The translations under genes and the position numbers were made by a program. Shown one piece after another: positions 29,099 through 56,185 of a DNA stretch of 64,000 bases. The first letter of the stretch is position 1. Every line of letters starts with the position of its first letter. Location: NCBI GenBank assembly GCA_913009335.1, contig CAJVXN010000001.1, forward strand, positions 71,709 to 135,708, written 5' to 3'. The notes below the pieces were generated by a model. The model was not told the DNA's origin, did no database searches, and worked only from the letters and a program-made list of their open reading frames with translations. The stretch is from an uncultured bacterium. Its GTDB lineage: Bacteria; Omnitrophota; Gorgyraeia; Ghiorseimicrobiales; Ghiorseimicrobiaceae.

Positions 29099-29137
29099 CT
29101 AACCCAGATTTTTTTATTAGAAAAATCTGCCCGTAGT

Positions 29138-29378: not shown

Positions 29379-30212
29379 TCAGCCCTCTTGCTTGTCGGAT
29401 TTAGGTTCTTTTTCTGTTTGCTTTTCCCCAAAAGCGGATTCTTTAGCATGCAAAAGTGAGTCTTTGGTAATTTGCGCCTGACGATGCCAAGTAAAAAAAA
29501 GTACCGCTGAAAGCAATCCGCTAAAAACAATTATACTAAAAATTACTATCCAGGTCATAGTTTTTGAAGGAGCATCTGCCTTTATCTTGCTATCTGCCAG
29601 CATTTCAGGAGCGGGTGGGCCCCCGGCAGTAACTAAAATCTTTTCCATTCTAAGAACATCTTTCTCTATCTCTTCCAAGGTAATTAAGCTCGCACGATAA
29701 GCACCGATATGCCGCTGGCGGCTAAGTGATTCATCGGACTGTTGCGTTCTGATTTCATTTAAACGCGGATAAATCGTATCGGCTAAATCTTTAGCCTTTT
29801 GATAATACTCTGAATCTTCCAACTTCCTAAGAATAGAATCCACGCGGTCGGAAAAAATAGAAAGCTTATCTTCTGAAACAATCCAAATATCCCTTACCTC
29901 TATTTCAAAAGTACTTATCTCTTTAGGGATAAGTTCAACTTGCTTTTTATAAACATAGTAAAGGGATTTATTGGTATCATATTCCAACTCAAGGCCCCCC
30001 AAATCTATAATATCTTTAGGAGTTACTTCTTGAGGTAAATACTTTTTAATCTCTGTGGTTTGCGTTTTTGTCGCGGAAGGATTAAGCACGATAACCTTAA
30101 AAGTAACGCTCTCGGCTGCTATTGTTTGCCTAAGGCCGACAAAACCAGACATCAAAAGGAAAAAAGAAAATACACAAACGGATTTTTTAATAAATGTTTT
30201 ATTTTTTTTCAT
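29379..30212 (-). CDS. Hypothetical bitopic membrane protein (N-terminal signal/TM, periplasmic domain, C-terminal TM + charged tail)
   Basis: 277 aa. N-terminal hydrophobic VCVFSFFLLMSGFVG and C-terminal TM TWIVIFSIIVFSGLLSAVLFFTW. Lies between the giant gene and the epsilon-like gene, 7 nt upstream of the latter. Confidence 0.45.
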   Translation of the reverse strand: MKKNKTFIKKSVCVFSFFLLMSGFVGLRQTIAAESVTFKVIVLNPSATKTQTTEIKKYLPQEVTPKDIIDLGGLELEYDTNKSLYYVYKKQVELIPKEISTFEIEVRDIWIVSEDKLSIFSDRVDSILRKLEDSEYYQKAKDLADTIYPRLNEIRTQQSDESLSRQRHIGAYRASLITLEEIEKDVLRMEKILVTAGGPPAPEMLADSKIKADAPSKTMTWIVIFSIIVFSGLLSAVLFFTWHRQAQITKDSLLHAKESAFGEKQTEKEPKSDKQEG

Positions 30213-30236
30213 ACCTGCCTGACCCTTTCAAGCCTA

Positions 30237-30274
30237 AATTACACATTTTAAGCAATGCTTGTTTTGTGTAATTT
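30237..30274 (-). promoter_or_regulatory. AU-rich 10-bp perfect stem-loop in the 88-nt spacer 3' of the giant gene
   Basis: aaattacaca ... tgtgtaattt with an 18-nt loop containing the nested hairpin aagcattgctt. No U-tract follows, so it is not a classical terminator. Confidence 0.25.
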
Positions 30275-30300
30275 TCTTGAAGTTAAGTTTCAATTAAGAA

Positions 30301-33300
30301 TCATTCGAAAATTACGACCGGATCTTCCAATCCTCCCATCTTGGTTTCCATTATTTGGCCCATAACATCAACACTGCTATTTATTGAATCCGCTTTTTCA
30401 CGTATTCTTCGCAGCGTAGGTGATTCTTCGATTGCTTCTTCCAATATCGTACTTAGATCATATCCTTCATCTCCGGCTAGGGTCCTCATCCTGTCAGAAA
30501 TATCGTTGATTGCCCGGGTTATAGTCGCGGAAGGTCCCTCCTTAGCCATAGCATCGGGAAGCGAATCTACGGATGCTTTAAGATTCTTTAAGGTAAGCGC
30601 GATATTAATGCTTTCGCCGCTGATTAAAACCGACTCAATTGCTTTTATCGCCTCTAACGCCTTTTTAGCTGCTGCTGCCGCCCGAGGAGCGGAAGCAGCA
30701 AGGCCGGCAACAGTAGTAATACTCATTGACTCTACCATTCCCGCGCCGGTAAGCAGGGTACTGCTCTCCTCCTCGATAATATTATAAGTGTAGGCTTTAC
30801 CGCCTGTAAACCTTGAATCTGCTTTCAATGAATATTCATAGAATCCCGCTCTGGTGCTACTCTCAACCATAACCAGGGAATCTTCAATAATATTCCCTTC
30901 CCAGTCGTAAATCGTAAGCAGCGGTACCACTTTAGGCAAGCCCATGCACTGTATGATTATAGTATCCCCGAGCAATACCGGATCAGGAAACGCGGCAGTA
31001 GTCCATTCATATTTCGCGACTAATCCTGAACCATAAACTAAACCGCCGGTAACCGACTCGGTAATAACGAAGGAGTAAGACTTACCCGCTTCGAAAGCAT
31101 CATCAGCCTTAAATTCATAAGTATAAATTCCCGGCTCACTCTCGGACATAACCACGTCACTAAAGACTGTCTTGCTATCGGCATCATAGATAGTAAGCGC
31201 AGGAGAATATCCCGGCTGTCCCTGGCAGGTTATGGTTATCGTATCATTAGTCAATGCCGGATCAGGAGAAGCTGATGCACCCCAAGAATACTTCAACGCT
31301 GTTTCTTCCAATAGGCCCGCTGCTTCTTCCGCGGTCACGGCACTATCTTCTAAAAGTATAAGCGAAGCGCTCACAGAAGTTTCAAAGCTTGTCATCGCGA
31401 CATCAATCATTGTTTCCATATTCCCCATCGAAGTCTGTATCATATCTGTCTGATCGGTCATCTTTTGGTCAATAACCGCGGTCTGCGCAGTTAATGTCGC
31501 CTGCAATTCGGTGCTGACCTCAGATATCGGCTTATCAAGGGCAGTATTAACAGTGGAAATCATGCTGTCAACCGTTGTCTCCATATCCGCCATCTTCATG
31601 GGTATAGTAACTGTAAATGATACAGGTGTTGTAAACGTCGCTCCGGTAGCTAACCCCATATAACTTGTTACGGCATATACTTTCCCTGATTGCAAGGTAA
31701 GATAACTATCCGCTCCGGCGGTATAAGGAGTCGGGGTCCAGGATTGTTGGAAGAAACCCGCGAAATCAGACGGGATATCCATCTCTCCTGTCTTATACGC
31801 CGCGCAATCATTTATCACATCATCCATAGTACGCACCTCTCCCGAACGGTCACCTACCCATAATTTCACGCCGGCATCAACATCATCATAATAGAGATGT
31901 TTGTTGTTAGCCTCGTCCACTAATGTTGTTTTCCTCTTGATTTTGTAAATGCTGTCATATATACTCACATCGATAATCAAAGCGCCGGAAACCAAAGCGC
32001 CGTCTCTTTCCAGCCAGGTTGTGATATCCAACTTATCAGGTGTCTCTACATAATCATCATCAGGATCTGCTGGAGTGCCATTGTCATTCCATACTTCCAC
32101 ATTATAAGCGAATTCTGAATAAGCGCGCCAGATATGCACGACCAACGTCTCCATGGTTCTGTATATCGTACGGTCTCCTCTCCAGATTTGCGCATCCTCA
32201 TCCCAACCCACCAGGTATGACTCGGTAATTGTCCCAAAATCCTGATGGGTCCATGTTGCCGACCAGAAACCAGCGGGAACTTCGTGCGATACCGGAGAAG
32301 CAAGGCCGGCAGCATCCCAACCGGATGTATCGCTTACCGTCAATCCGGAAATCGGCTGGTTAGTAACAAGATCCCGTATATCCCAGATAATCTTATAATA
32401 ATCTATCTTCATCGTATCCACACCGCCGGCTACTACCGGCCCCTCTACGTATACGGTATGGTCATTACTGTCATAGATGCGTATCTTAACCGTGGTGGAG
32501 CGGTCATCAGGTATCTTCCAATCGAATGTACCTGTGTTGGCGATACCGGTCGCATCCTGGTCAAGATCATCCTTCAGCGCAATCTCAGTAACAAAATCAT
32601 CCTTTGAATAAACAAGATCTACCGTATTAATCGTTCCGAATGTCGTCCAGGAAACTTCACGGACTTCATTTGTGACCCAGCGGGACTCATAAATTCCGCT
32701 GCTATTCAATGTTACTGCCGGAGCAATAAGGGTAAAAGCGCCCTGAATCTTAAATGTGCCGGACTCGCCAAAAACAGTCGCATCTCCCGGATCAGTAATT
32801 CTTATTTTACAATCAGGCGAGATAGTATCCGGTATAGTCCAGGCATACGTATATTCCGAACCCGACCCGCCTGAACCCGCGCCGTTTTGAACTATACCGT
32901 CATTGGCGATATCGTAACTTTCAACAATCGGATTAAACGGGCCTGTATCCCCATTTGTGGAATAGGTTATCTTGACTTCAGACATTGTTCCTCCCCATTC
33001 CCAGGCAATATCATAAACACTATCAACTGCCAACTCCGTAACGAGCTGACCGCTACCCTGCTCTTTAATGCCGTTTACTATAATATACCCAATGATATGG
33101 AAGGAATCACTCTGGGCAACAACGTCTGACTCGGTAGGCCTGGCATCAACTACTTTAATAATCGCATCGGCTGTTGCCTGATCAGGAACTGTCCAGGTAT
33201 AAGTATAGTTTGAACCTGCCCCGCCTGAGCCTGAGCCGTTAGCTACTATACCGTCATCAGCGATATTATAACTTTCAAGGATTAGATTAAACGGACCGCC

Positions 33301-48300: not shown

Positions 48301-51300
48301 CGTAAAGTCAAGTCCGGTATGATTCCAGTCAATCAGGTTACCGGTCTGGGTGCCGATTAACCATTTAACCGTGGACAGCGGGGCAGTAACCGCTATATCC
48401 GGCAGGAGATAAAATGTGCCCGTAGTATCTACGGCGTCGGCATTATCCGGGTCGCTGATCTTGAACACGCACCCGGAATTTCTGACATCCACCGGCACAC
48501 TCCAGGCATAGGTGCCGGAATTGGTAACAAGGCCCGTATCGGTACTCTTATAATCTATGTTGTGCCAGACTGAGCCGTCGTAGAATTCTAATTTTGCCGT
48601 GGGTATTTCGGTCTGCAGGCCTAAGTTATCCCAGGTGATATCATAAGAAGTGCCGGATTTTAAAGGGGCTGCCGGCGTATTAATCGTGAATCCGCCCTTG
48701 ATCTTAAACGGCAGGGATTCGGCATATTCCTCGCCGGGGTTGTTTTCCGATTCTACCTTGACCTGGACATTCTCTGAGATTGTCGAAGGTATAGCCGGCC
48801 AGTTATAGGAATGGGTCTCTACTGCGATTGGCGCCGGGTTAATCGGAGCCGAATAAGCGCCACCGTCGTATTTATACCTTATATTTACATTACCTAAAGA
48901 ACCCGTATGCGTCCATGTTATATATTTATCCGTAGTAGCGGCCTGCCAGTTAGAACTGGAATCCGGTGTATGCACTCCATCGGTCATGGTGATACTGCCG
49001 ATAATATCGAAGCTGGAGGATAATCCGTAAACATTGGGATTGCCGGTGCCGCCTGATTTATCCAGGACCTTTACTACAACATCACCGCTTAAATAATCCC
49101 CGACATTATTCCAGTCAACCTTGCCTAATGTCGCATCCACTCCCGTTGCTATTGTTTTATCAAAAGGCCCGCCAATGCCGGTTGTGCTGAATAAGACGTC
49201 TGCTTCAGTTACTTTCACAGAGCCGTTTAAGCTCCATACAATACCATCAACGTATGAAGAACCAACAACCGTATTAGAATCAACCAATGGTTCTGAAACC
49301 GTTATAACAGGCCTGATGGAAAACGCGACCGCTGACTCAATAAATACATCAGAGTCGGCATTATCGGATATCTTTATATAACAGTCTTCCGAATTCTCAT
49401 CGGTAACGCCTGTTGTCCAGGCGTATTGGTTACTACCGTCAACGTGTCCGGTATCATTTAAAACAATAACATTATCATAGGCGCCGGCTAAAGAGGTCTT
49501 ATACCTGATATCCACGCTTGCAATCGAACCATTTGCCGTCCAGGTAACAACCTTATCCGTATCGCCCACATACCAGATTTGCCCGCCGTTAGGGCTCATA
49601 TTCGTAAAAGAACCCTTGATGCTAAACGGATTTTGCGATTGATCCGTAACCGGTATGCCGCCGATACTGGTAACTCTCACCTTCACATTATTATCGATAA
49701 AATCATCTATGGGGTCCCAGGGATAGACAAGGCTATCCGCCGCATAGCTTGCGGAGATAGTGTTAAAATCAAAACTAAAGTCATCATTAGAATATTCAAT
49801 CAACAGGTTGCCGATACTTCCTGTCTTGGTCCAGGTTATGTCGAATGGACCCCCAACAATTAATGTTTCATAGCCGTCGGGGTCTGTCAGATCAACCGAA
49901 CCTTTTATTATATTATCAGCTGTAGATTCGCCGTACACATTAGCGTTATCTTTATCTTTTACGCGGACTTTAACGGTATTGCCGATATTATCGTCTACGG
50001 TCCAGTTATAGGTTGTAGTCCCCTGGGAAAGGCTGCTCGTGGTTACCGGATTCCAGCTGGTGCCGTCGTGATAATCAATATCAAAACCCGGTATCGAAGT
50101 CGCATCGTATGACCATTCAATAGTGTATGATGTTTCGGCTATCATCTCATCCGCGTTCATCGGATAAACAATAGTAATATGTCCGATGATAGCGTTGTCA
50201 GTGGCGGATTCATCCGTTACATAGGCAGCATTGGATATCTCAAATATCTTTACCTTTACCGTGGCAGAAGACTCATCGGGAACGGTCCAGGAATGCGAAT
50301 TCTCGACCCCGGATGCTCCGGGAGCAAGGCTCGCCGCGCCGGCAACCGTATTCCAAATCGCGTGAGCGGCATCGGTTGAATATTCAATCTTCACATTAGT
50401 AATCGTACCCGTGGGAATCCATTTTATATCATAAGGAGTCCCGTAATCTATATTTATGCCTCCATTCGGCTGGGTTAACTCAAGGACACCCATTATTTCA
50501 AACCATGCCTGCGATTGGTCGGAACTATAGCTGGGAACATCGGGATCGCCAACCTTAGATATTCTGACGATAGTGTCGTTATTGGCTTTATTGGGAATAG
50601 TCCAGGGGAATTGCAAGGCAGAGGCATCGTATCCGCTAGATATAGGAGGGTCCTCCCAGATATTACCGCCGTCTAAGGAATATTCAATCTTTATCTGCGG
50701 AACATCGCCCCAGTATTCCCAGGTAATATTGGGGGTAGACTCTATTGCCCAGTGCTCGCCGCCATCGGGCGCGGTCAGATTTATTACCGGTTTAATCTTA
50801 AAATCAGCTATGGACTCATCGTTCACGCTCGCATCCGTAGTATCCCTGATGCGTATTCTGGCATTATCAGTCGTTACATCCACATACTCAGCGAGAGGAA
50901 TAGTCCAGGTATACGTACCCGCGCTGCCGCTTACAGATGATACAATTAGTTCCGAATATCCTCCAGTTCCGCTGATAGTATCTAAGTCTATTGCCACTGT
51001 AGCGATGCTTCCCGTAATACTCCAGTCAATTATGTTATTGTTCGCGGTTACTGTCCAAACTGTAGAAGCATTGGGATTACTACCGATAAAAACCGAACCC
51101 CTTATCCTGAACTTACTAACTAAGAATTCTTCCGTACTCACGCTATTATCTGACGCTTGCTCAATTTTAATTTTCGCATCAATAGTAGGATTATCCGGTA
51201 CTGTCCACTGATACGGCTGGGTATAGCCTACGGCAATCGTATCGAATGCCGGATCCCAACTTGCCCCATCAGTATCGCTAAAATGTAAATTAACATTGCC

Positions 51301-54300: not shown

Positions 54301-55716
54301 ATCTTTCGGAACTACCCATCCATAAACTCCGTCATTAGGCGTGGTTGCGACAATCGTATAATTATAGTTAGTCCCGCCGTCATTGGATAACAATATCTCC
54401 ACATTGGCTATCTGGTCAGGAGCATACCAGGTAATGTCTTCGGTGTCATCGCACTGCCATAGCTCGCCGCCATTAGGTGTAAAAACCTGCAGCGGCTCCA
54501 GTTCTATAACAAAGAAATCGCAGACACCCTGCTGGCCGGCCTCCATCCTTTGGAACGCAACCTGGGTGCCTAAATTAACGACAATATTGGAATGTCTAAT
54601 TCTATAATAGGCGTGCCCGCAACCGGTACTATCTTGGGTAGAAGCGCTAAAGGAAAGATCCATATCAACGGCTTGCCCCAAATCTTGTATAACCTGAGTG
54701 GTATCATTATAGGGCAATAAGACCTCGCCGGCTTCTGTCCGGCCAAGGGTACCTAATTCAACAACATACCAATAGGCATACCCCGACCCGGCACTAGTTC
54801 CCGAGGTGCGCCTGTTAAAACCTACCTGCGTATCGGAGGTGATTGCTCCTCTTTGTTCCGAGCACAAAGCTGACTCGTCAAGCCTTGTTCCGAAAAGCAT
54901 AAATGCCTTTGTGCGGTCAACAGGATTAGGCAAGTCAGATACCGCTAAAAAGGAATCTAGCTCCATATAAGACTCACCCTCATAAACCGTAGAATCGTCC
55001 TTTAACTCCACGACAAACGTCCAGACATCGGCGGTAAGATTACCACCTTCGCCAAGATAACGCCTTAATCGTACCTGGTCAGGGGTGCCATGTTGGATTT
55101 GTGTGGCAAAATAAGTCGTGTTCATACGTTCACCCCAATCCGAGGCCTGATGTTGGACGTTAGTCACCCGGGAGATAGCAAATGACTTACCCGGGGTATA
55201 ATCAACGGCAAGGGCCGCCCCGCCCGCAAACTTGTCAGTCTCAGTCGCGGCAAAGCTGGTTTCCCGATACTCGACTTCAAAAGCGTCGGATTCAATGACA
55301 TACCAGCTAATGACACAATCATAACTTGTACTACCAAATGATCTCTCGAAGGTTATATAAGTAGCTAAACCAGTAGGCGTAGGAGTTCCAACAGCGTCAG
55401 TGAATCTAGCTGCCCAGCCATGCGCGGAAGGGTATATCGCGGTATAGGTGGCGACTTCATTTCTAAATTGGAATAGGATAATGGACTTGCTTGTATCTAC
55501 ATCATCAATGTCAACGGTATAAGTGGTGCCTGAGAGTACCGACGATTCACCCGACTGCACTTTTGTCCGGGCAAAAGCAGGCGTAGCGGTAAGGTTAAGG
55601 AGAAGCCCTAAACATATAAATGAAAACAAAGAGATTATAAGAATTCTCTTTGTGAAGGCGCCTCTTCCTCCCGGCTTCAAATCCATGCTTATTTTAGACA
55701 AATCAATCGTACCCAT
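30301..55716 (-). CDS. Giant secreted repeat protein (8471 aa): signal peptide, unique ~450-aa N-terminal region, ~80 tandem Ig-like ~90-aa beta-sandwich repeats in ~681-aa supermodules, divergent ~1000-aa C-terminal region
   Basis: Uninterrupted 25,416-nt ORF. Start codon is preceded by SD AGGTGAGG. N-terminal signal LIISLFSFICLGLLLNLTATPAFA. Repeat consensus GxxTxxxPxxGExWxxGxxxxIxWxxxGxxxxVxIxYSxDGGxxWxxIAxxxxNxGxYxWTxPxxISDxxKVRVxDxxDxxVxDxSDxxFxI. The supermodule is marked by the recurring block EDCYI[KR][IV][SA]D...FSIRPVITV, seen at least 6 times. Confidence 0.85.
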   Translation of the reverse strand: MGTIDLSKISMDLKPGGRGAFTKRILIISLFSFICLGLLLNLTATPAFARTKVQSGESSVLSGTTYTVDIDDVDTSKSIILFQFRNEVATYTAIYPSAHGWAARFTDAVGTPTPTGLATYITFERSFGSTSYDCVISWYVIESDAFEVEYRETSFAATETDKFAGGAALAVDYTPGKSFAISRVTNVQHQASDWGERMNTTYFATQIQHGTPDQVRLRRYLGEGGNLTADVWTFVVELKDDSTVYEGESYMELDSFLAVSDLPNPVDRTKAFMLFGTRLDESALCSEQRGAITSDTQVGFNRRTSGTSAGSGYAYWYVVELGTLGRTEAGEVLLPYNDTTQVIQDLGQAVDMDLSFSASTQDSTGCGHAYYRIRHSNIVVNLGTQVAFQRMEAGQQGVCDFFVIELEPLQVFTPNGGELWQCDDTEDITWYAPDQIANVEILLSNDGGTNYNYTIVATTPNDGVYGWVVPKDNETTTDMIGILTDTLKVKVRDVNWNEFGRTDDTYSSDESDTNFEIIAKVQLDQPDGGEEWFYGDSYDINWTIYGDAADIGNIVIKRDESSGSGGYLTTLATVSASPTTWQWNPVDGNIGVTHKVKIEQQGEETRVYDESAANFRIKGDVTLGSLTTPWLVGTNPSIPWTHKLPNPSTQNLEIHLSRNDGATYDDLLAIVAADTSPYTGWSVVPPLVSAQAKIRIRWATDPAVASESATGFNIDGSITVTAPIVSDTWKIGESKNITWNYVGTLGTVDIFLSTNNGGTWSEIFSNLPVVNQLQAWIVAGNPTSQGLIKIQTDSYAPNEIAGESGANFTIVSVITITRPVTAGVVWRVGASENIQWTIDGALASNKVKIYYKKGTGGIWNEITQPTGWTADIGDGTGSFPWTVPNDIYDEVYIKVEDFDDAAIYHESLSIKIKGAVTVNKPVGAEVVKVSDVAETYNIQWGLTGNVTGMVDIKLSLDGGTSYPTTLTEGVVDITTGNWDWTVLDTHIGNDCMIKVAVDNDESLTTGTAGESASFFVKPQVKLTYPNETGLIKSIGDIVTVTWNAIPDTFGTVMLKYSTNGAAGPYDGTINTLPINSDLETYDWTILDVPGMVGQNTRVQVYKTDDITDVHSESDFDFVVKGTVALTGEANGVGSPVWESNIAESITWNKVGDLGTVKIEFSKDSTPNYAYTIATGLDDDDLSYSWDMPTGLFTTLDFERTEYARIKISSETDGSISDETDTPFVVQSRFSLTQPIGGETLEVEQAGGYDITWSTYGKIPQVKLAYDVNSGGDLYDRNIAAGAAISNVDLYNWTVPNSIGDKVRVKLMSYNYQSFIAVTSPADFKIKGRVEIVAPDATIIGANAWRVDNVASGLTSEESIIWNNYGDLGSGTDQVTIKYAADGSTFDTTLTTTADGTNGLNRNYLWTIPDNIGTTNKIAIEDISHANSALHIFQESQAFEIKGQVKLTAPVGGETYYIGGSPIDITWVYAGSLGNVNLHFSDTDGASWDPAFDTIAVGYTQPYQWTVPDNPTIDAKIKIEQASDNSVSTEEFLVSKFRIRGSVFIGSNPNASTVWTVTANNNIIDWSITGSIATVAIDLDTISGTGGYSELIVSSVSGSAGTYTWTIPLAEYVDVTTDNARIRIRDTTDASVNDESIADFKIKPVINLTAPDGGEHWAIESTPNITWEYWGDVPQIKIEYSLDGGNIWEDPPISSGYDASALQFPWTIPNKANNDTIVRISKVGDPDVPSYSSDQSQAWFEIMGVLELTQPNGGINIDYGTPYDIKWIPTGTITNVKIEYSTDAAHAIWNTVAGAASLAPGASGVENSHSWTVPDESSATVKVKIFEISNAAYVTDESATDNAIIGHITIVYPMNADEMIAETSYTIEWSYDATSIPGFDIDYHDGTSWNPVTTSSLSQGTTTYNWTVDDNIGNTVKVRVKDKDNANVYGESTADNIIKGSVDLTDPDGYETLIVGGPFDITWTKTGSIGNLLIEYSNDDFSFDFNTISASYAADSLVYPWDPIDDFIDNNVKVRVTSIGGIPVTDQSQNPFSIKGSFTNMSPNGGQIWYVGDTDKVVTWTANGSIASVDIRYKTSLAGAYDNVIVLNDTGHVDGSNQYAWTTGVTDENSEDCYIKISDNADSDVFIESAVAFSIRPVITVSEPLVDSNTVVGSSYVDGIVWSLNGSVKVTEADVLFSTTGIGGPFDKTIATGVDATLGKVDWNNVGDYLSGDVVVKVLDKSGGTGNPNVYGLSSSFDIIGSITMTDGVHTPDSSSNWQAATTDKYITWTHTGSLGNVNIRYKYDGGAYSAPINPAPIAVETHSYNWPAIPSTISENVQVKVESENNPGEEYAESLPFKIKGGFTINTPAAPLKSGTSYDITWDNLGLQTEIPTAKLEFYDGSVWHNIDYKSTDTGLVTNSGTYAWSVPVDVRNSGCVFKISDPDNADAVDTTGTFYLLPDIAVTAPLSTVKWLIGTQTGNLIDWNHTGLDFTVKIEYSKDDGSDGYAYLVDTGVGVLASAGTFEWNIPTDQDILSTSQAKIKVSDAGFPSLYDTSESFMLKAAVTVTKPDTDDSLPVLDIFNIQWTTTCTGAADMGNVQIEFRPKDTESYTTVATVAFNSSPYTLWSPPADSIRGSIKEADIKITDVDNTEVTDTSDKFNIKGKIQIDSPNVGAQTWFVGDTTREIKWTPTGVYSNTEIHYAKDTPDANPANFLSPVLIATEANSGSGVQVTYVWPQIPNSAMGNDIRVRVRDAADTNVYSISQDAITIGGKITINEPQAGRIWKKDEVKDISWTSDGDVTNVNIQYKTTALGSWNDIETNYTGGGTYGEGSNSYPWTVVDVNSEDCYIRVADYNNSTIVYGDSLQFSIRPVITVTTPALDVNLEVDSLGNTISWNLNGSTKVSNVKLYYSYDGGPFTNVIDESGTVDATLDYTWNNIPDTISDNVVVRVIDNDNANVYGDSASFDIIGKIIISAPSSGVNWRAGQVKTIDWGTSKGTMGLVRLFYWFNSQYNLIDTGGDINSDVTTTFGWTVPANLITGSTIKILDVDTEGTVDEVTAISASFNIIGNIVVDTPSAITVWKKDETNKLIEWTSTGAVTNVKIEYKTSAGGSYAGNTIVADDPGHTAGANSYTWALAVPDINSEDCYVRVSDVNYYDDVFGESAQFSIRPLITVSIPALDDNLVVGSDNNSIIWSLNGSAQVTTVDIHYQINAGGYGVNVVKTAVSAIAEASDWDNVPDSIDGNVQIRVMDVDNNNVYAESASFDIIGSVTVQQPNSSANWEVGTTDKNITWIYTGSIGTVNIYYDYGTGYGAPIASVPVSDQSYSWNPIPDNVSETVKVKIADADNETEVVDESEVFSIRGGFTITFPSAPTTLISGTGYDITWNRTGTDISNVILEFSDDNGAGWSDIDNNAPNTGTYAWTAPVNVASTNCLIKVTDPDNPSATDTIASNFEVRAKITLSDPIASDEWVVGTSENIAWTVTGVVSNVKIEYSKDGGTGYPLTAVASYDASLSPYPWAIPVTDVSLEDLRTPDQAKIKVSDASYSVVYDTSPNFMVKGGIAVSAPVTSDILHVSDPFNITWITTGFYDVGSNVVIGYSITGGAPFTNIDTVAFDYGSGSYPWTPPIDSITTDLKNAVIEIKDADNPTKVRDESDLFEIEGKIQIDAPDTSGLMWTVNSSRDIKWTPTGTYGPIEIQYSKDNFASDFQPVNTVTNSASGVQGTYSWTIPNDISDTVKVRVRDDNDDDVNDVSGFDVKIVGGLDLTVPESGEVWKKGETKDITWTATGDVTNISIEYKTSAAGGYTTIIADDSGHLAGGNSYSWTSVADENSEDCYIKISDVAHPVDVQSVSAAAFSIRPVITVTTPALDDNLIVSSSGNAINWTIDSSIKVNPVDVHYSVDGGAYTGNTIAIGVTASDLTTNWDNVPDAVSDNVKVRVMDSVNNNVFGESASFDIIGSVTVQQPNSSANWEVGTTDKNITWIYTGSIGTVNIYYDYGLGYGAPIASVPVTDQAYSWNPIPDNVSETVKVKITDADNETEVVDESDVFKIRGGFILVQPPAVLISGDPYTITWTPNGVDIATALLQFSSDNGQNWNPIDGGTGLVSNTGTYGWTIPSDVVSSTCLLKITDPDNSAATDTISSTFEVRAKIVVNAPIGTDEWNVNSAYDVKWTVTGLVTDVKIEYSKTGGAPYTETLVASRDASLSPYSWTILPTQDVISSQGMIKISDTSYATVYDESPEFSIIGDVQVTAPVGTDVLRVGDTFDIEWTSVGAGNIIIGYSTTGGAPFTNIDTVPYDYNNRAYPWTPPIDAITANQKLAVIEMKYENNPLKVRDESDLFEIEGKIQIDAPDTGGLMWTVNSSQDIKWTPTGTYAKVEIQYSKDNFAADFQPVNTVTNSASGVQGTYSWTIPNDISDTIRVRVRDDDDDDVNEVSGFDIKIVGSLDLTVPESGEVWKKGETKDIIWTATGDVTNISIEYKTSAAGGYTTIIADDSGHLAGGNSYSWTSVADENSEDCYIKISDVAHPVDVQSVSAAAFSIRPVITVTTPALDDNLIVSSSGNAINWTIDSSIKVNPVDVHYSVDGGAYTGNTIAIGVTASDLTTNWDNVPDAVSDNVKVRVMDSVNNNVFGESASFDIIGSVTVQQPNSSANWEVGTTDKNITWIYTGSIGTVNIYYDYGLGYGAPIASVPVTDQAYSWNPIPDNVSETVKVKITDADNETEVVDESEVFTIRGGFTITFPNLSTDVLISGTGYDITWNRTGTDIPTVLIEFSSDNKQNWSTIDAAASNTGTYGWTAPSNVASQACFIRISDPDNASAADDSDQNFEVRAKIDVTGPIVTDEWAVGAAYDITWTVTGIVTNVKIEYSKDGGTNYTEELVASRPYDQSPYSWTVPSDKDILSTQGVIRVADASYAAANGESPEFSVIGFITVNAPVTSDILHVGDAFDIQWNAIGYGMGNVTIGYSITGGAPFTNIDTVPYDFGVPAGTYSWTPPDSAITSDLKNAVIEVKADYYPTGVRDESDLFEIEGKIQIDAPDTSGLMWTVNTPHDIKWTPTGTYTPVEIQYSKDNFAADFQPVATVTNSASGVQGTYSWTIPNDISDTVKVRVRDDNDDDVNDVSGFDVKVVGSLDVSVPESGEVWKYNESKNITWSAVGDVSNVKIEYKTSAAGAYNVIVTDDPGHVQGGNSYAWTVADENSEDCYIKISDVVHPADVYSESAASFSMRPVITVTTPALDSNIEVASNGNAIVWSLNGSAKVSYVNLYYSVDGGPFTNVIDETGSVDATAGAFTWNSIPDTISDNAVVRVIDTTNSNVYGASASFDIIGKIRVTTPAIGENWGVGELRTITWDPDGTLGNVKIYYYHDGAYEWIATVPHAPSSYDWTVAAQIEENTTIKIVDEDTEATVDEVAGVSAAYNIIGNFSLDAVPATLSAGSSYSITWDPLGLQGEIPTAKLEFFDGLIWHNIDYKTTDNGLVTNSGSYSWSVPTDVKSIACQFRITDPDNASAIDTSNSFEVRAVISVTSPVSSDKWVIGTSGNIISWNITGVVDTVKIEYSKDGGLSYPGAFVVEPSLPAASTPYDWTIPTNLDILTADQAKIKVSDSTLAVAYDESADFMMKSGITVTKPDTNNILKVLDAFNIEWTTLGLADMGNVDIEFSKIGSAPWTIVATVAFDSSPYTLWFPGIGDITTNSKAAVIKITDVDNTEVTDNSDAFEIEGKIQLDSPDIDAPTWYVGDPQQIKWTPTGTFSYVKIEYSTNGFADELEITVEAASYSNSASGVQGTYDWTIPDEIGGSLKVRISDVNDSDVVDVSSVPFVIKGSLTLNEPNGGDTWYVADTNKKIRWQATGSVTTVRIEYSKNNGGAWTEIIADAFAGPGAGEYTWPSVADAISELCLIRVSDTNDATVNDESDGVFSIKGKIQVIAPDGTERWIAQSSGHNITWNLTGSIQDVKITYSVDAGAFDNVIAASVTGSDESYTWNNIPNHVSDTYLIRVADLNDETNVYGTSPAFSIVGDITVTEPSGGEQLPVGSDFKVEWTKVGDFANVRIEYSLNGGTDFNDQIVSSTATDNLFYWWMSIADNAVSPNVVVRVTDDSDIQVYDDSLAFKVQAIFDIISPDGGVVWAVGSSHDIIWTTSGDVTNVKLEYSTDGGNNWVIPNGDVISASIVNTGSKSWTIPDAISDLVRVRVSDVNDSDASNMSASNFKIRGDLQVTSPNSGAESWLIGASEPITWTVTGSVATVKLEYSVDGQAYVQIPGADNLTADTGGGGGSFDWTIPNDASSLVKVKITNKDDSTVYDESDNDFTITGQLTLSAPVGSEVWYVQDQETISWTKTGTIPTVKLEYSVGGAAYQPVQDADNLSGLTYDWIIPDDIDNQVKVRVSNTDITEPTIVGVSGLFSIKGKLQITNPASGVVWDVAQQKDITWITTGSIATVRLEYDYGSGLNPITASVNASNQIYQWTIPNTIGDNVTVKITDNLDNTVTHTSNVFKIAADINLLSPMGTEVWIVDNSEPITWEKFGDIVNVVLKYDTNEGLNGYPNTIATRPAVDGSYSWPVPDVIGDKLRVRIEDANASSSTQPDESPANFEIQGSITITSPALNDIWLCETQHDIAYTIHGSIANVSIEYSTDAGVTYPYAPIAGSVAVGPGDYTQTWTIPLDTSIQTVIKIINLADANVYDESNEFSMRGGFTFVHPVSTDRWLANSTNMISWNTLGAISSVYVEYSLNNGGVWGYVNDGSAISNATENYNWTIPNVISQQALVRVTDTADPDATTTSDNFNIHGALTVAQPNGQDKLKVGQSDESSKVKWTMIGPLSGVDIALSTNGSGGTYTTFATNQQASLLEYAWSVPMSTLSNNCFIRIRDTQDSLVEDFSDLAFKIMENFNVTVPNGTEQWVVSDVETITWTSQGLASSVNLKYATVAPYDTWTPIVTDEINDGNYDWTIPPTISATCRVRVSDYNDDTDSFDMSDNDFKIQGRITLNIPNGGEKWGCADNKYIDWDWDGNITNVDIHYYNGSIWVAIAAAQGITNIGEYEWNIPSIATDQALIRVRSTADLANVYDISANPFKIMSRIVIQNPNGAEVWYSGSSGTINWAKYGPASFGSVKIDYSVNDPTFTNPIPITTSTASDEAFDWLNIPPEAVSGNVRIRVAHPSDSDVYDISDGDFRVRATLILTAPNGGQKITVDDPYTISWSELGDTQGVKIYCYKQTQPAIKYTIATAAPVGGTYAWTIPDFIHSDLIMRVEDPNDTDAFDISDSTFKIMPGFTVSSPDASSKWYVNDPATISWTYTGTVVDVGIYYSTVGGIAGTWNALTSVSASDLSWTWLSVPDEITAQLKVKVAAANDADAYGESAGMAKIRAKFTLTAPTGGEELVVGDTFQIAWDTVGTVSNVDLHYSLDDFTTPKDIQLGWANGAAGGTYDWTIPDDISQIVKVRVKSSTDDDAYSISNDLRIKGNLWINAPVLDDSWDIEQDYDIEWGWVGTIPEVEITYSINGTGGPFNLILESYNIADDGIVANGSGSGGAGSNYTYTWTVPDQATADAIIKVVDARPTESDVVAQSDSFHIIGYIIVNGIKEQGSGQLVTELAVDSVYDIAWEWGGTMSEVKITYSTNGDTGPFNPIVESYDIANDGIVQNGAGSGGSGSEYTYAWTIPDTISPDCKIRITDPGDATVFGESGTFKIQGAFTLIAPAVTLNSSGIYESRWVTNEVREVSWTTFGTINTVDLVYSKDDFVTEIALKDDLDQDATGIANTGTFDWKIPDDRSTTVKIRIYDSNDHTVYVEGPVVAGGVDTMKIDYYKIIWDIRDLVTNQPISGLTVSDTSGWDAAGLASPVSHEVPAGFWSATWTHQDFGTITESYLVGWDEDAQIWRGDRTIYRTMETLVVHIWRAYSEFAYNVEVWNDNGTPADPDDDYVETPDKLDITTWLERDGALVSGALIIDVSIYDSIYKIKRKTTLVDEANNKHLYYDDVDAGVKLWVGDRSGEVRTMDDVINDCAAYKTGEMDIPSDFAGFFQQSWTPTPYTAGADSYLTLQSGKVYAVTSYMGLATGATFTTPVSFTVTIPMKMADMETTVDSMISTVNTALDKPISEVSTELQATLTAQTAVIDQKMTDQTDMIQTSMGNMETMIDVAMTSFETSVSASLILLEDSAVTAEEAAGLLEETALKYSWGASASPDPALTNDTITITCQGQPGYSPALTIYDADSKTVFSDVVMSESEPGIYTYEFKADDAFEAGKSYSFVITESVTGGLVYGSGLVAKYEWTTAAFPDPVLLGDTIIIQCMGLPKVVPLLTIYDWEGNIIEDSLVMVESSTRAGFYEYSLKADSRFTGGKAYTYNIIEEESSTLLTGAGMVESMSITTVAGLAASAPRAAAAAKKALEAIKAIESVLISGESINIALTLKNLKASVDSLPDAMAKEGPSATITRAINDISDRMRTLAGDEGYDLSTILEEAIEESPTLRRIREKADSINSSVDVMGQIMETKMGGLEDPVVIFE
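41606..42400. repeat. Intragenic direct repeat, copy 1 (709 nt identical to copy 2, then ~95% identity); period 2043 nt = 681 codons
   Basis: 41606-42314 is nucleotide-identical to 43649-44357. The plus-strand antisense ORFs 41813..42043 and 43856..44086 translate identically. Flanking copies near 40.3 kb and 46.4 kb are about 85-90% identical. Confidence 0.85.
43649..44443. repeat. Intragenic direct repeat, copy 2 (see 41606..42400)
   Basis: Same as above, offset 2043 nt. Confidence 0.85.
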
Positions 55717-55729
55717 TTACCTCACCTGA

Positions 55730-56185
55730 TTAATACTCTTGCTCAAGGATAACTTTTCCATATTTATCATACTGTTTTGCTTTCGCTAAGAGATTATTTT
55801 TATAGGCCTTCTGAGACAATAGCTGTCCGTTTTCATAATATTCTTTGACAACGACAATACCTTGCTTTTGGTCTCTATAGTCCCACTCTCTCATCAAAGC
55901 TCCGCTGATGTAGTATTCATTGATAATACCGGTCAGCTCGTTGTTTTTAAAGCGTCCTTCATAATTTAAGTTGCCATCGGGGCAGCATTCTTCGGCAATG
56001 CCATCCAGTTTTTCATTCCCATAGGACTTTTCCCACATTAATTGTCCATCTTCATAATAGTCCTTAAAAATAATATGATTTTTATCGTCTTTTACCGGCT
56101 CTTGCCCATAAACCAGGCTGCAAGAAATCATAACCGGCATAAGTATTAGTAATACTGCTTTTTTAAATAAACTAACCATTCCCAT
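55730..56185 (-). CDS. MORN-repeat (MORN_2-like) lipoprotein
   Basis: Signal plus lipobox (LLILMPVMISC). Repeated Y.E.G.L..E..Y.N.K.DG units (YYEDGQLMWEKSYGNEKLDG; YYENGQLLSQKAYKNNLL). Stop lies 13 nt upstream of the giant gene start. Confidence 0.55.
   Translation of the reverse strand: MGMVSLFKKAVLLILMPVMISCSLVYGQEPVKDDKNHIIFKDYYEDGQLMWEKSYGNEKLDGIAEECCPDGNLNYEGRFKNNELTGIINEYYISGALMREWDYRDQKQGIVVVKEYYENGQLLSQKAYKNNLLAKAKQYDKYGKVILEQEY

What the first reader, a model, noticed from the sequence alone, without database searches (positions are those of the whole stretch)
30301..55716. 8471-aa giant secreted protein made of ~80 Ig-like repeats organised in ~681-aa supermodules
Seen in sequence:
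- A single uninterrupted 25.4-kb ORF with a good SD and signal peptide.
- Repeat unit of about 85-95 aa with invariant W/G/YS.DGG/W..P/ISD..KVRV positions, suggesting a beta-sandwich.
- A higher-order period of 7-8 units, marked by EDCYI[KR][IV][SA]D...FSIRPVITVT and recurring at least 6 times.
- A unique N-terminal ~450 aa with no repeat.
- A C-terminal ~1000 aa with a Met/Thr/Ser-rich low-complexity stretch and two paralogous ~95-aa segments (YSWGASASPDPALTNDTITITCQG... and YEWTTAAFPDPVLLGDTIIIQCMG...).

Inference: this is an adhesin/fibre-like surface or secreted protein, consistent with the giant genes of Omnitrophota-like bacteria. I cannot assign the repeat fold or binding function from sequence alone.
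Basis: partly seen in the sequence, partly recalled or inferred. Interest (0 to 1): 0.7.

Follow-up and report, generated by a model that had tools for sequence, protein, structure and literature searches.

The report
Giant riboswitch-controlled surface fibre of Omnitrophota
This is a real 8,471-residue gene from an ultra-small Omnitrophota bacterium that encodes a roughly 0.9-MDa string of 74 immunoglobulin-like beads, probably a long cell-surface tether for grabbing other cells. It has a separately encoded membrane anchor, an upstream c-di-GMP-type riboswitch, and sits inside a conserved secretion/pilus and ATPase gene cluster.

Summary
Window 30301-55716 (minus strand) is one stop-free 8,471-codon ORF with a Shine-Dalgarno site and a cleavable signal peptide. 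It contains 74 head-to-tail ~98-aa beta-sandwich repeats, closest to Pfam Kre9_KNH. A 7-unit (~681-692 aa) supermodule is present, and its youngest copies share 710 identical bases.

New findings:
- The N-terminal ~360 aa are four copies of a different, Pfam-dark beta module.
- The C-terminal ~700 aa form a conserved module. In 16 homologue clusters it continues in frame into a beta-sandwich, helix bundle and TM anchor. Here that anchor is the separate downstream 277-aa gene.
- Omnitrophota relatives conserve the order riboswitch, RAYT-like gene, small exported proteins, giant gene, anchor, F-type ATPase, GspE/F/G.
- Orthologues are 5,484 to 10,669 aa long.
- A c-di-GMP-I-class aptamer plus terminator heads the operon, in the window and in five orthologous loci.

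Best reading: a c-di-GMP-regulated, membrane-tethered fibrillar adhesin that works with the T2SS/type-IV-pilus-like machine. It is a new variant of known giant surface proteins.

Supermodule copy number cannot be trusted without long reads.

The parts
58165..58192 (-). Promoter-like site (TTGAAA-16-TATACT) about 40 nt upstream of the riboswitch aptamer
   Evidence: Consensus scan. This is a pattern match only.
58035..58124 (-). c-di-GMP-I-class (GEMM-I, GGC variant) riboswitch aptamer at the head of the operon that contains the giant gene
   Evidence: Rfam RF03167 scores 59.1 bits (gathering 59), E 2e-11, with the full model matched. The same clan is found at the same position in L013 (RF01051, 65.5 bits), L015 (53.4), L017 (39.6), L014 (29.9) and L018 (26.1).
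57991..58022 (-). Intrinsic terminator (10-bp stem plus a run of U), the expression platform of the riboswitch. Its loop and 3' half can alternatively pair with the 3' strand of the aptamer as an anti-terminator.
   Evidence: The two alternative folds are at -49.3 and -49.0 kcal/mol. A terminator in the same place is present in all five orthologous leaders. A competing fold within 4 kcal/mol was also computed for L013 and L015.
56642..57910 (-). First gene of the operon: a 422-aa protein with an N-terminal REP-associated tyrosine-transposase-like domain, one TM helix and a C-terminal exported domain. It is conserved upstream of the giant gene in all related loci.
   Evidence: Pfam Y1_Tnp 1e-12; NCBIfam REP_Tyr_transpos 5.5e-20, below cut-off; synteny at 32-35% identity in L013-L018; sequence.
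56187..56639 (-). Conserved 150-aa exported protein, 2 nt after the previous gene
   Evidence: It has a signal-peptide-like N-terminus and is conserved in L013-L018.
55730..56185 (-). 151-aa MORN-repeat protein with a lipoprotein-like signal (..VMISC). Its stop is 13 nt before the giant gene's start.
   Evidence: Pfam MORN_2 3.7e-9; sequence; conserved in L013 and L014.
30301..55716 (-). Giant ORF: 8,471 aa, 914.8 kDa, pI 4.1
55720..55726 (-). Shine-Dalgarno sequence GGTGAGG
55570..55716 (-). Signal peptide, aa 1-49: long n-region, hydrophobic core aa 25-42, AFA|RT cleavage motif
   Evidence: Hydropathy scan. The cleavage region is conserved in P0001 and P0002. No SignalP-type predictor was available.
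54493..55569 (-). N-terminal 'head', aa 50-408: four tandem copies of an ~85-90-aa all-beta module (aa 62-155, 170-250, 247-335, 338-407). It is unrelated to the Ig repeats.
   Evidence: Iterated HMM; AF2 model is all-beta with mean pLDDT 79.5; no Pfam, NCBIfam or PDB sequence match; hhalign against the Ig repeat gives probability 0.3%; 150+ distant relatives, some also with sets of four modules.
32407..54492 (-). Stalk, aa 409-7770: 74 tandem Ig-like (Kre9_KNH-type) beta-sandwich repeats
38323..49608 (-). Supermodule zone, units 17-54 (aa 2037-5798): five 7-unit supermodules of ~681-692 aa plus one 3-unit partial module, in a mosaic relationship
43649..44358 (-). 710-nt exact repeat, copy 1 (copy 2 is at 41606-42315, offset 2043 nt = 681 codons). 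It lies inside an ~1.8-kb pair that is 87% identical.
41606..42315 (-). 710-nt exact repeat, copy 2
31603..32406 (-). C-terminal module part 1, aa 7771-8038: beta-rich domain conserved in Omnitrophota homologues (..WDIRDL.., ..HIWRAYSEF..)
   Evidence: In the model of fused homologue P0004, residues 100-260 have pLDDT 80-95.
31297..31602 (-). C-terminal module part 2, aa 8039-8140: the Met/Thr/Ser-rich segment, predicted to be a long alpha-helical hairpin
30727..31296 (-). C-terminal module part 3, aa 8141-8330: two paralogous ~95-aa beta-sandwich domains (44% identical). Some homologues have only one.
30304..30726 (-). C-terminal module part 4, aa 8331-8471: helical tail. In 16 homologue clusters it runs on in frame into the anchor module, so it is the proposed docking region.
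30228..30280 (-). Stable RNA hairpin in the 88-nt spacer between the giant gene and the anchor gene. It is not followed by a U-run.
   Evidence: MFE -22 kcal/mol, z = -2.96.
29379..30212 (-). Anchor gene, 277 aa: own signal peptide, beta-sandwich, three-helix bundle, strongly conserved TM helix (aa 216-243) and a cytoplasmic tail with the (S/A)AFP motif. It is homologous to the C-terminal extension of the fused giant homologues.
   Evidence: In the model, pLDDT is mostly 92-97 for the beta-sandwich and helices.
24277..29371 (-). F-type ATPase operon (epsilon, c-like, b/delta fusion, alpha, gamma, beta), starting 7 nt after the anchor gene. No a subunit is present. The c-like subunit has Gln at the ion-binding carboxylate position.
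   Evidence: The adjacency is conserved.
14384..24280 (-). T2SS/type-IV-pilus-like genes: MshEN protein, GspE with a C-terminal PilZ domain, GspF, Peptidase_MA_2, GspG, pseudopilin-like ORF, GspJ, GspK, PilM-PilN fusion, PilO/GspM
62486..63988 (-). Secretin (GspD/PilQ-like) at the upstream end of the same co-directional cluster. A TPR/coiled-coil protein and a cyclophilin PPIase with a SurA-like N-terminus lie between it and the riboswitch.

Best explanation
The gene encodes a ~915-kDa fibrillar surface protein of an Omnitrophota bacterium.

Proposed pathway:
1. Shown from sequence: a Sec signal peptide, the only hydrophobic segment, is followed by a ~360-aa four-module beta 'head', then a stalk of 74 Ig-like Kre9_KNH-type domains, then a ~700-aa C-terminal module of beta domain, helical hairpin, two small beta-sandwiches and a helical tail.
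2. Inferred from textbook Ig-domain dimensions of ~3.5-4.5 nm: a fully extended stalk would be roughly 260-330 nm, about as long as the cell.
3. Inferred from gene fusion and fission: the helical tail docks on the periplasmic beta-sandwich and helix-bundle domain of the 277-aa bitopic protein encoded 88 nt downstream. The fibre is thus tethered by its C-terminus to the cytoplasmic membrane with the head distal. In many relatives this link is covalent, as one polypeptide.
4. Inferred from conserved synteny: the fibre works with the T2SS/type-IV-pilus-like machine (secretin, GspE-PilZ, F, G, J, K, PilMNO) and with the F-type ATPase encoded directly after the anchor. The secretin is the likely route across the outer membrane.
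5. Aptamer and terminator shown; direction of control inferred from folding: the operon is headed by a c-di-GMP-I-class riboswitch. Its terminator competes with an anti-terminator that uses the aptamer's 3' strand, so ligand binding should switch transcription off.
6. Inferred: the function is attachment to, or capture of, host or prey cells by an episymbiotic or predatory nanobacterium.

Stalk length evolves by unequal recombination between 7-domain supermodules.
For: - ORF and architecture.
- Ig-like fold.
- No enzymatic, RTX, LPXTG, PEP-CTERM or T9SS signals.
- Fusion and fission: 16 homologue clusters carry the giant C-tail and the anchor in one chain. At least 41 clusters are stand-alone anchors with their own N-terminus. 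The fused ORF in L022 is followed by the same ATPase genes.
- The anchor's TM helix and cytoplasmic tail are nearly invariant across 40+ sequences.
- Downstream synteny (giant, anchor, epsilon, c, b/delta, alpha, gamma, beta, GspE-PilZ, GspF, Peptidase_MA, GspG) holds in loci whose anchors are only 43-60% identical.
- Upstream synteny (RAYT-like gene, 150-aa ORF, giant N-head) holds in 6 GTDB genomes.
- Orthologues of 5,484 and 10,669 aa are built from the same repeats.
- Riboswitch and terminator are conserved in 6 of 6 leaders.
- Gaps of 2, 1 and 13 nt join the leader gene to the giant gene.
- Literature: giant Omnitrophota genes lie next to T2SS-like loci and are proposed to act in prey adhesion (10.1101/2023.11.21.568195; 10.64898/2026.06.07.730766). 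T4aP and non-respiratory F-ATPase 'symbiosis' loci are described in PMC10066038.
Against: - No binding partner, expression or localisation data exist.
- Docking of the giant tail on the anchor is inferred only from fusions. The model of the fused homologue has pTM 0.31 and low pLDDT in the tail, so it shows no confident interface.
- How an inner-membrane-tethered fibre would cross an outer membrane is unknown.
- An 'off' response to c-di-GMP is the opposite of the usual rule that c-di-GMP promotes adhesion. The ligand of the GGC aptamer variant was not verified.
- A competing anti-terminator was computed in only 3 of 6 leaders.
- Supermodule copy number rests on one assembly. Other assemblies break inside the gene.
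Confidence: 0.55

Rival explanations
1. The protein is a released T2SS cargo or an extracellular coat or matrix protein. After Sec export it is pushed through the secretin and either leaves the cell or forms a loose 'velamen'-like layer. On this view the downstream 277-aa protein is only a neighbour or a chaperone-like factor.
For: The window protein has a signal peptide and no TM segment of its own. It lies inside a T2SS-like operon. SP-only giant proteins are a recognised class in Omnitrophota. A giant protein was proposed to form a coat in V. archaeovorus.
Against: In 16 homologue clusters the same C-terminal module is covalently joined to the TM anchor. Those versions cannot be released without cleavage. 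The anchor gene is always adjacent.
Confidence: 0.2
2. The protein is a mechanically driven 'leg' or reeling tether. The fibre, its sequence-conserved TM anchor with cytoplasmic tail, and the adjacent a-less F-type ATPase would form a force-transmitting unit. The analogy is the Mycoplasma mobile gliding machinery, where giant Gli349/Gli521 surface proteins are driven by an F1-like ATPase.
For: - The anchor gene ends 7 nt before the ATPase epsilon gene, and this adjacency is conserved in all loci examined.
- No a subunit is in the operon, and the c-like subunit has Gln at the carboxylate position in the window, L008 and L009.
- The anchor's TM helix and tail are unusually conserved.
- Seymour et al. 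place Omnitrophota ATPases next to T4aP genes in a 'symbiotic' clade together with Mycoplasma type 2/3 ATPases.
- A predicted c-di-GMP 'off' switch is typical of motility genes (plus general knowledge).
Against: - The alpha subunit is most similar to ordinary F1 alpha subunits, E 1e-134 to 1e-144.
- Two orthologous loci keep Glu in subunit c.
- An a subunit could be encoded elsewhere in the genome.
- There is no evidence of contact between the anchor and the ATPase.
- Gene adjacency may reflect only operon history.
Confidence: 0.1
3. The ORF is an assembly artefact: chimeric, or collapsed or expanded across repeats, and not a single real gene of this size.
For: - A 710-nt exact repeat and ~1.8 kb at 87% identity are spaced by 2043 nt, a multiple of 3. 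Gain or loss of whole supermodules would therefore leave the frame intact.
- Independent assemblies break inside the gene, at about aa 4990 and aa 7390.
- All six GTDB relatives have the gene cut by a contig end.
Against: - 8,471 codons without a stop.
- Conserved head and C-module sit at the two ends with conserved flanking genes.
- The 3' ~10-15 kb is reproduced at 99.8-100% identity in other assemblies.
- Complete orthologous ORFs of 5,484 and 10,669 aa exist in other MAGs.
The gene is real. Only the number of supermodules is uncertain.
Confidence: 0.05
4. The protein is an Archaeovorin-like multi-enzyme giant protein that degrades prey cell walls.
For: It comes from the same phylum and has the same kind of T2SS-adjacent context as the published giant genes.
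Against: No catalytic, SecA_DEAD, HEAT or dockerin domain is present, and there is only one hydrophobic segment. All parts of the protein were scanned.
Confidence: 0.03

Closest known systems
Omnitrophota giant proteins (Archaeovorin and Dockerin types of West-Roberts et al. 2023; 'tandem-repeat scaffold' and SP-only classes of Nielsen & Lui 2026)
   Same: Same phylum. The gene is very long and is embedded next to T2SS/type-IV-pilus-like genes and a PPIase. A role in contact with host or prey is proposed. The repeat architecture fragments assemblies.
   Different: - It is much shorter (8.5 kaa against >=10-147 kaa).
- It has no internal TM helices, no SecA_DEAD, and no enzymes, dockerin or TSP3 domains.
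- It is built almost entirely of Kre9_KNH-type Ig domains, which neither paper mentions.
- It has a dedicated anchor partner that is either split or fused.
- It has a riboswitch-controlled leader.
Fibrillar adhesins with Ig-like stalks: RTX adhesins LapA, SiiE and MpIBP; S. aureus Ebh (compared from general knowledge)
   Same: A distal binding head sits on a long, acidic stalk of tandem beta-sandwich domains. Stalk length varies by repeat number. LapA-type adhesins are under c-di-GMP control. Ebh has a signal peptide and a C-terminal TM anchor, like the fused orthologues here.
   Different: - There is no RTX or T1SS signal (0 GGxGxD motifs) and no LapG/LapD-type retention module. Export uses a Sec signal.
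- The repeat family differs.
- The anchor is a separate polypeptide in this genome.
- The organism has a secretin, so it is presumably diderm, unlike S. aureus.
Pfam PF10342, Kre9/KNH-like N-terminal Ig-like domain
   Same: Segments of the stalk score above the family's gathering threshold, and 21 of 69 single repeats match at E<=0.01. The predicted fold is a beta-sandwich.
Omnitrophota T4aP / non-respiratory F-type ATPase 'symbiosis' loci (Seymour et al. 2023, PMC10066038)
   Same: An F-type ATPase operon sits directly beside the GspE/PilB, GspF and pilin genes, within 10 kb.
   Different: In the passages I read, that paper does not describe a giant gene and anchor gene sitting immediately upstream of the ATPase, or a riboswitch. 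Whether this alpha subunit belongs to their 'symbiotic' clade was not tested.
c-di-GMP riboswitch control of adhesins and pili (e.g. Clostridioides difficile, Vibrio cholerae; general knowledge, and PMC6890996 for c-di-GMP control of large adhesins)
   Same: A GEMM-I-class aptamer with a terminator lies in the leader of an operon for a surface structure.
   Different: The predicted polarity here is 'off' on ligand binding. The best-scoring model is the GGC variant. The first regulated gene is a RAYT-like membrane protein.
Mycoplasma mobile gliding machinery (Gli349/Gli521 plus F1-like ATPase; general knowledge)
   Same: Very large membrane-anchored surface proteins are associated with an F1-type ATPase that is not obviously chemiosmotic.
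   Different: There is no sequence relationship between the surface proteins. This ATPase keeps c, b/delta, gamma and epsilon subunits and a canonical-looking alpha. The organism is diderm. Coupling between fibre and ATPase is purely hypothetical.

Membership tests
Pfam PF10342 Kre9_KNH Ig-like domain (the repeat unit) | Sequence score at or above the Pfam gathering threshold (24.6 bits) | tested here: met
   Two stalk segments score 38.8 and 48.3 bits. 21 of 69 single repeats match at E<=0.01, best 1.3e-6. Many single units fall below threshold.
Pfam PF10342 Kre9_KNH Ig-like domain (the repeat unit) | Ig-like beta-sandwich fold | tested here: met
RTX / T1SS giant adhesins (LapA, SiiE, MpIBP type) | C-terminal RTX nonapeptide repeats and a T1SS secretion signal, with no Sec signal peptide | tested here: not met
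   There are 0 GGxGxD motifs and no HemolysinCabind or related Pfam/NCBIfam hit. An N-terminal Sec-type signal peptide is present.
Archaeovorin-type Omnitrophota giant proteins | Many TM helices, a SecA_DEAD domain, and multiple enzyme domains (GT, GH, methyltransferase, NUDIX) | tested here: not met
   There is one hydrophobic segment only. No such Pfam domain appears anywhere in the protein.
Dockerin-type Omnitrophota giant proteins | [quoted passage not shown] | tested here: not met
   No PF00404 or PF18884 hits.
Covalently sorted surface proteins (LPXTG/sortase, PEP-CTERM/exosortase, T9SS C-terminal domain) | The corresponding C-terminal sorting signal | tested here: not met
   No LPxTG motif. 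NCBIfam and Pfam give no hit on the C-terminal 718 aa or on the anchor. The anchor's TM helix is followed by a ~35-aa conserved tail, unlike a sorting tag.
Signal-peptide plus C-terminal-TM fibrillar surface proteins (Ebh-like topology) | Signal peptide and C-terminal TM anchor in one polypeptide | tested here: not met
   The window protein ends before the anchor. The TM helix is on the separate 277-aa protein. The feature is met in fused orthologues such as P0004/L022.
T2SS exoprotein (cargo) | Sec- or Tat-exported folded protein that is secreted in a T2SS-dependent manner. No sequence signal is known. | not testable with these tools
   Only the signal peptide and the position inside a T2SS-like operon can be shown.
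c-di-GMP-I (GEMM-I) riboswitch clan CL00126 (the leader element) | Covariance-model score at or above the Rfam gathering score, with the full-length model matched | tested here: met
   In the window, RF03167 scores 59.1 bits against gathering 59, model positions 1-80 of 80. The orthologous leader in L013 matches RF01051 at 65.5 against 35. L015, L017, L014 and L018 are below gathering but lie at the same position.
c-di-GMP-I (GEMM-I) riboswitch clan CL00126 (the leader element) | Binds c-di-GMP and controls downstream expression | not testable with these tools
   Only the aptamer, the terminator and the computed alternative folds are available. The ligand of the GGC variant was not established here.
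Omnitrophota 'symbiotic' F-type ATPase / T4aP locus (Seymour et al. 2023) | F-type ATPase genes co-located within 10 kb of T4aP genes | tested here: met
   The beta subunit gene overlaps the MshEN gene, and GspE follows 3 nt later.
Omnitrophota 'symbiotic' F-type ATPase / T4aP locus (Seymour et al. 2023) | The alpha subunit falls in the non-respiratory clade with type 2/3 ATPases | not tested
   No phylogeny was made. The alpha subunit is most similar to ordinary F1 alpha in the PDB. Indirect hints come from the a-less operon and the Gln in subunit c.

The most novel reading that the evidence does not exclude
The giant fibre, its anchor and the adjacent F-type ATPase may together form a new ATP-driven surface machine of diderm nanobacteria. 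The anchor has a near-invariant TM helix and cytoplasmic tail. The ATPase operon lacks an a subunit, and its c subunit has lost the ion-binding carboxylate in this lineage. The proposed machine is a retractable or stepping tether for catching, or moving on, host cells. It would be deployed through the secretin of the neighbouring T2SS/T4P-like system and shut off by a cyclic-dinucleotide riboswitch. This would be a functional analogue of the Mycoplasma mobile gliding legs that arose independently.
Probability: 0.08. Interest if true: 0.9.

Novelty: new variant of a known kind. Interest (0 to 1): 0.6.

Why it matters
Omnitrophota are abundant, uncultured, ultra-small bacteria thought to live on or prey on other cells. 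Their giant genes are the main clue to how they make contact, but most are undecipherable.

This locus is a comparatively simple and readable case. It has a head, a stalk of countable Ig domains, a docking module, a separate anchor, a defined regulatory RNA, and a conserved set of partner machines. Together these yield concrete, testable hypotheses:
- tail-anchor binding;
- riboswitch ligand and polarity;
- passage through the secretin;
- a link to an unusual F-type ATPase.

It also shows how stalk length evolves, through 7-domain supermodules and orthologues of 5.5-10.7 kaa. It gives a practical warning that short-read assemblies cannot fix the copy number.

Tried and rejected
- PDB sequence searches with the head, the C-module, the anchor and a repeat profile found nothing significant.
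- NCBIfam found nothing for the head, C-module or anchor.
- Pfam at E<=1 on 49 C-module and anchor sequences found nothing meaningful and no GspC/PilP-like domain. My idea that the anchor's beta-sandwich is a GspC/PilP 'HR' analogue therefore has no support.
- Foldseek against the PDB with both models gave only generic multi-Ig/FN3 or macroglobulin matches, with TM-scores of ~0.1-0.2 normalised to the query.
- hhalign of the head against the Ig repeat showed no relation.
- Pfam on ten distant relatives of the head module showed the homologous regions to be Pfam-dark.
- I looked for an independent contig spanning the whole gene. Look-ups with flanking genes returned only contigs that stop inside the gene or short contigs.
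- One locus (P0039) suggests a third split point but had no DNA available.
- The literature search for the GGC aptamer's ligand was uninformative.


Full report
**1. The observation**

Window 30301-55716 on the minus strand is a single ORF of 8,471 codons without a stop. It starts 13 nt after the stop of the preceding gene and has a GGTGAGG Shine-Dalgarno site at -10 to -4. The product is 914.8 kDa with pI 4.1. It is rich in Thr, Ser, Asp, Val and Ile and has only 29 Cys. Its only TM-like hydrophobic stretch is aa 19-49. That stretch ends in AFA|RTKVQ, a junction conserved in the two closest homologues. I read it as a cleavable Sec signal peptide, although no dedicated predictor was available.

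**2. Repeats**

An HMM bootstrapped from one unit finds 74 contiguous repeats covering aa 409-7770. Units are 91-118 aa, typically about 98.

Pfam places the unit in Kre9_KNH (PF10342, an Ig-like domain). Two stalk segments score 38.8 and 48.3 bits against a 24.6 cut-off, and 21 of 69 single units match at E<=0.01.

**3. Supermodules and assembly risk**

- Mean identity between units peaks at lag 7 (0.40 against 0.29 background) and lag 14.
- The EDCY... marker occurs at aa 2110, 2825, 3124, 3812, 4493 and 5177, with a degenerate copy at 5869. The spacings are 715, 299, 688, 681, 684 and 692 aa.
- Units 17-54 therefore form five 7-unit supermodules plus one 3-unit partial module. Best-partner relationships are mosaic; for example units 48-53 resemble 24-26 followed by 20-22.
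- The youngest copies are 87% identical over 1.8 kb. They contain a 710-nt exact repeat (43649-44358 and 41606-42315) at an offset of 2043 nt, which is 681 codons. There are 8 synonymous and 4 non-synonymous differences in 294 codons around it.
- Because the offset is a multiple of three, gain or loss of whole supermodules would leave the reading frame intact. The uninterrupted ORF therefore does not prove the copy number.
- Independent assemblies of the same organism reproduce the 3' part at 99.8-100% identity but end inside the gene. A MEGAHIT contig ends at about aa 4990. The NCBI MAG contig DRER01000044.1 and a Logan contig end at about aa 7390.

**4. The ends of the protein**

*N-terminal head.* The non-Ig N-terminal region is aa 50-408. 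It is not repeat-free. An iterated profile detects four tandem copies of an ~85-90-aa module at aa 62-155, 170-250, 247-335 and 338-407. The model is all-beta.

*C-terminal module.* The non-Ig C-terminal region is about 700 aa (7771-8471). It has seven homologues in the indexed search, and every one that carries a taxon label is Omnitrophota.

A model of a fused homologue (P0004 residues 365-1226) has mean pLDDT 73.9 and pTM 0.31. It shows these parts in order:
- a beta domain;
- one small beta-sandwich, where the window has two copies that are 44% identical with z = 34;
- a helical region of low confidence.

No enzyme domain, RTX repeat, LPXTG, PEP-CTERM or T9SS signal is present.

**5. The anchor**

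Aligning the C-terminal homologues showed that several of them continue about 250 aa beyond the window protein's stop. The extension is a beta-sandwich, a three-helix bundle, a TM helix and a short charged tail.

That extension is homologous to the separate 277-aa ORF 88 nt downstream in the window (29379-30212). This ORF has its own signal peptide and a TM helix at aa 216-243.

Among homologues of the 277-aa protein, 16 clusters carry the giant C-tail and the anchor in one chain. At least 41 are stand-alone proteins with their own N-terminus. In L022 the fused ORF is continuous in the DNA and is followed by the same ATPase genes.

This is a classic fusion/fission link. The giant protein's C-terminus and the anchor act together, covalently in some lineages and presumably non-covalently here.

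The anchor's TM helix and cytoplasmic tail are nearly invariant across more than 40 sequences (..TMTWIVIF.IIIF.GLL.GVLFFTW.RQ.R.TK..L...K.SAFP). That is unusual for a mere hydrophobic anchor and suggests specific partners in or under the membrane.

**6. Genomic context**

The giant gene sits in a 43-kb co-directional, tightly packed cluster. In order along the coding strand, this cluster and the co-directional genes upstream of it read:
- secretin, TPR/coiled-coil protein, cyclophilin PPIase with a SurA-like N-terminus, and small exported proteins;
- the riboswitch leader;
- a 422-aa RAYT-like membrane protein, a 150-aa exported protein and a MORN lipoprotein;
- the giant gene and the anchor;
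- the F-type ATPase genes epsilon, c, b/delta, alpha, gamma and beta;
- an MshEN protein, GspE with a C-terminal PilZ domain, GspF, Peptidase_MA_2, GspG, a pseudopilin, GspJ, GspK, a PilM-PilN fusion and PilO/GspM;
- histidine kinases, one of which carries a GGDEF domain.

The downstream order, from giant through anchor, ATPase and GspE-PilZ to GspF, Peptidase_MA and GspG, is conserved in loci whose anchors are only 43-60% identical. There the giant orthologues are 5,484 aa, 10,669 aa and at least 4,060 aa, and they are built from the same repeats.

The upstream order, RAYT-like gene then 150-aa ORF then (MORN) then head, is conserved in six GTDB genomes at 36-57% head identity. Every one of those has the giant gene cut by a contig end.

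Published work already notes two relevant patterns. Omnitrophota giant genes lie beside T2SS-like loci and a PPIase (10.1101/2023.11.21.568195; 10.64898/2026.06.07.730766). T4aP genes co-locate with non-respiratory F-type ATPases (PMC10066038). In the papers I searched and read, I found no mention of Kre9-type Ig arrays, the anchor gene or a riboswitch.

**7. Regulation**

Rfam finds a full-length c-di-GMP-I-class aptamer at 58035-58124 on the coding strand. The model is RF03167, the GGC variant, at 59.1 bits against a gathering score of 59 and E 2e-11.

A promoter-like site precedes it. A 10-bp-stem terminator with a run of U follows at 58022-57991, about 80 nt before the start codon of the RAYT-like gene. 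That gene is joined to the giant gene by gaps of 2, 1 and 13 nt.

The same clan of aptamer, followed by a terminator with a conserved ..UUUGCC.. segment, lies at the same position in all five orthologous leaders. The scores are L013 65.5 bits (above gathering), L015 53.4, L017 39.6, L014 29.9 and L018 26.1.

Folding gives two nearly isoenergetic states in the window. One is aptamer plus terminator at -49.0 kcal/mol. The other is an anti-terminator that pairs the aptamer's 3' strand with the terminator, at -49.3 kcal/mol. Competing folds within 4 kcal/mol were also found for L013 and L015, but not for L017 or L018.

The simplest reading is an 'off' switch, in which ligand binding favours termination. 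Both the polarity and the ligand of this variant remain to be tested. The PilZ domain on GspE and the GGDEF kinase in the cluster fit cyclic-di-GMP control of the whole locus.

**8. Mechanism**

*Shown:*
- a Sec signal with a head, stalk and C-module architecture;
- the Ig-like fold of the stalk units;
- no enzymatic or known sorting domains;
- the fusion/fission link to a bitopic anchor;
- conserved synteny;
- the riboswitch aptamer and terminator.

*Inferred:*
- The protein is exported and tethered by its C-terminus to the cytoplasmic membrane through the anchor, with the head distal.
- With ~3.5-4.5 nm per Ig-like domain (textbook value), 74 domains would span roughly 260-330 nm, comparable to the cell itself.
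- The secretin-containing T2SS/T4P-like machine provides passage through, or display at, the outer membrane.
- The fibre mediates contact with host or prey cells.
- Stalk length changes by unequal recombination between supermodules.

I put this composite reading at about 0.55. The main rival is a released T2SS cargo or coat protein, at about 0.2. It fits the SP-only topology but not the fused orthologues.

The most novel reading the data allow is that the fibre and anchor are mechanically coupled to the adjacent F-type ATPase. The supporting points are:
- no a subunit in the operon;
- Gln at the carboxylate position of subunit c in the window, L008 and L009, but Glu in L011 and L022;
- the anchor gene ending 7 nt before epsilon.

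This would be analogous to the Mycoplasma mobile gliding machinery. I give it about 0.08 to 0.1.

**9. Verdict**

It is a new variant of a known kind, combining features of giant fibrillar surface proteins and of Omnitrophota giant genes. Several features look undescribed: the anchor fission and fusion, the four-module head, riboswitch control, and the fixed position in front of an unusual F-ATPase operon. The supermodule number needs long-read confirmation.

Noticed in passing
window 24277-29371 (-); also L008, L009, L011, L022: The F-type ATPase operon right after the anchor gene has the order epsilon, c, b/delta fusion, alpha, gamma, beta. It has no a subunit, and epsilon is only ~77 aa. 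The c-like subunit lacks the usual Gly-rich helix 1. It has Gln at the position of the ion-binding Glu/Asp in the window, L008 and L009, but Glu in L011 and L022. The alpha subunit still looks like ordinary F1 alpha.
   Followed up: partly
window 56642-57910 (-) and 58213-58899 (-): The first gene of the operon has a REP-associated tyrosine-transposase-like (Y1) domain fused to a TM helix, a coiled coil and a ~100-aa exported domain. It is conserved (32-35% identity) in front of the giant gene in all related loci, so it is not a mobile element. Its C-terminal domain is paralogous to the 228-aa exported protein encoded upstream of the riboswitch.
   Followed up: partly
window 57915-57985 (-); leaders of L013, L014, L015, L017, L018: Between the riboswitch terminator and the start codon, each leader carries two copies of a conserved palindrome-like motif (A)AAGUGCCAGGCA(C). 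It could be an operator or a REP-like hairpin, possibly the target of the RAYT-like protein. The second copy in the window is degenerate.
   Followed up: no
window 30228-30280 (-): A stable hairpin (10-bp perfect stem; MFE -22 kcal/mol for the spacer, z = -2.96) lies in the 88-nt spacer between the giant gene and the anchor gene. It has no U-run. It may be an mRNA processing or stability element that sets the giant-to-anchor ratio.
   Followed up: partly
window 21602-23821 (-), 23825-24280 (-), 10336-11865 (-): There are further cyclic-di-GMP modules in the cluster: GspE carries MshEN plus a C-terminal PilZ domain, a stand-alone 151-aa MshEN protein precedes it, and a histidine kinase-GGDEF protein lies downstream.
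   Followed up: no
window 19386-20330 (-): A Peptidase_MA_2 (M1-like metallopeptidase) gene sits between GspF and GspG and is conserved there in all orthologous loci. No prepilin peptidase (GspO/PilD) and no GspC/PilP-like gene were seen in the window.
   Followed up: no
L018 (codon 1284 of the giant orthologue), L022 1945-2018, and the record behind P0039: Some orthologues are interrupted. L018 has an in-frame stop, with repeats continuing after it. L022 has a frameshift-like 74-nt overlap of two calls. In the P0039 contig the helical tail plus anchor is called as a separate 406-aa gene 112 nt after the giant fragment. These could be assembly errors or real alternative split points.
   Followed up: partly
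window 42314-42835, 44363-44917, 50573-51211 (+): These are antisense ORFs of 173-212 aa inside the giant gene. Two of them lie about 2049 nt apart, so they simply repeat with the supermodule. They are most likely not genes.
   Followed up: no
window 30001-56000 versus the flanks: The giant gene is more GC-rich (0.41-0.485, highest in the young supermodules at 46-48 kb) than the flanking genes (0.35-0.42). This probably reflects its amino-acid composition rather than foreign origin.
   Followed up: no
window 108-3945 (+) and 4106-6211 (-): At the low-coordinate end of the window, the + strand carries a pyridine-nucleotide-disulphide oxidoreductase and a molybdopterin formate-dehydrogenase-like gene. 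A VTT-PAP2-LssY_C membrane protein follows on the - strand. None of these is related to the finding.
   Followed up: no
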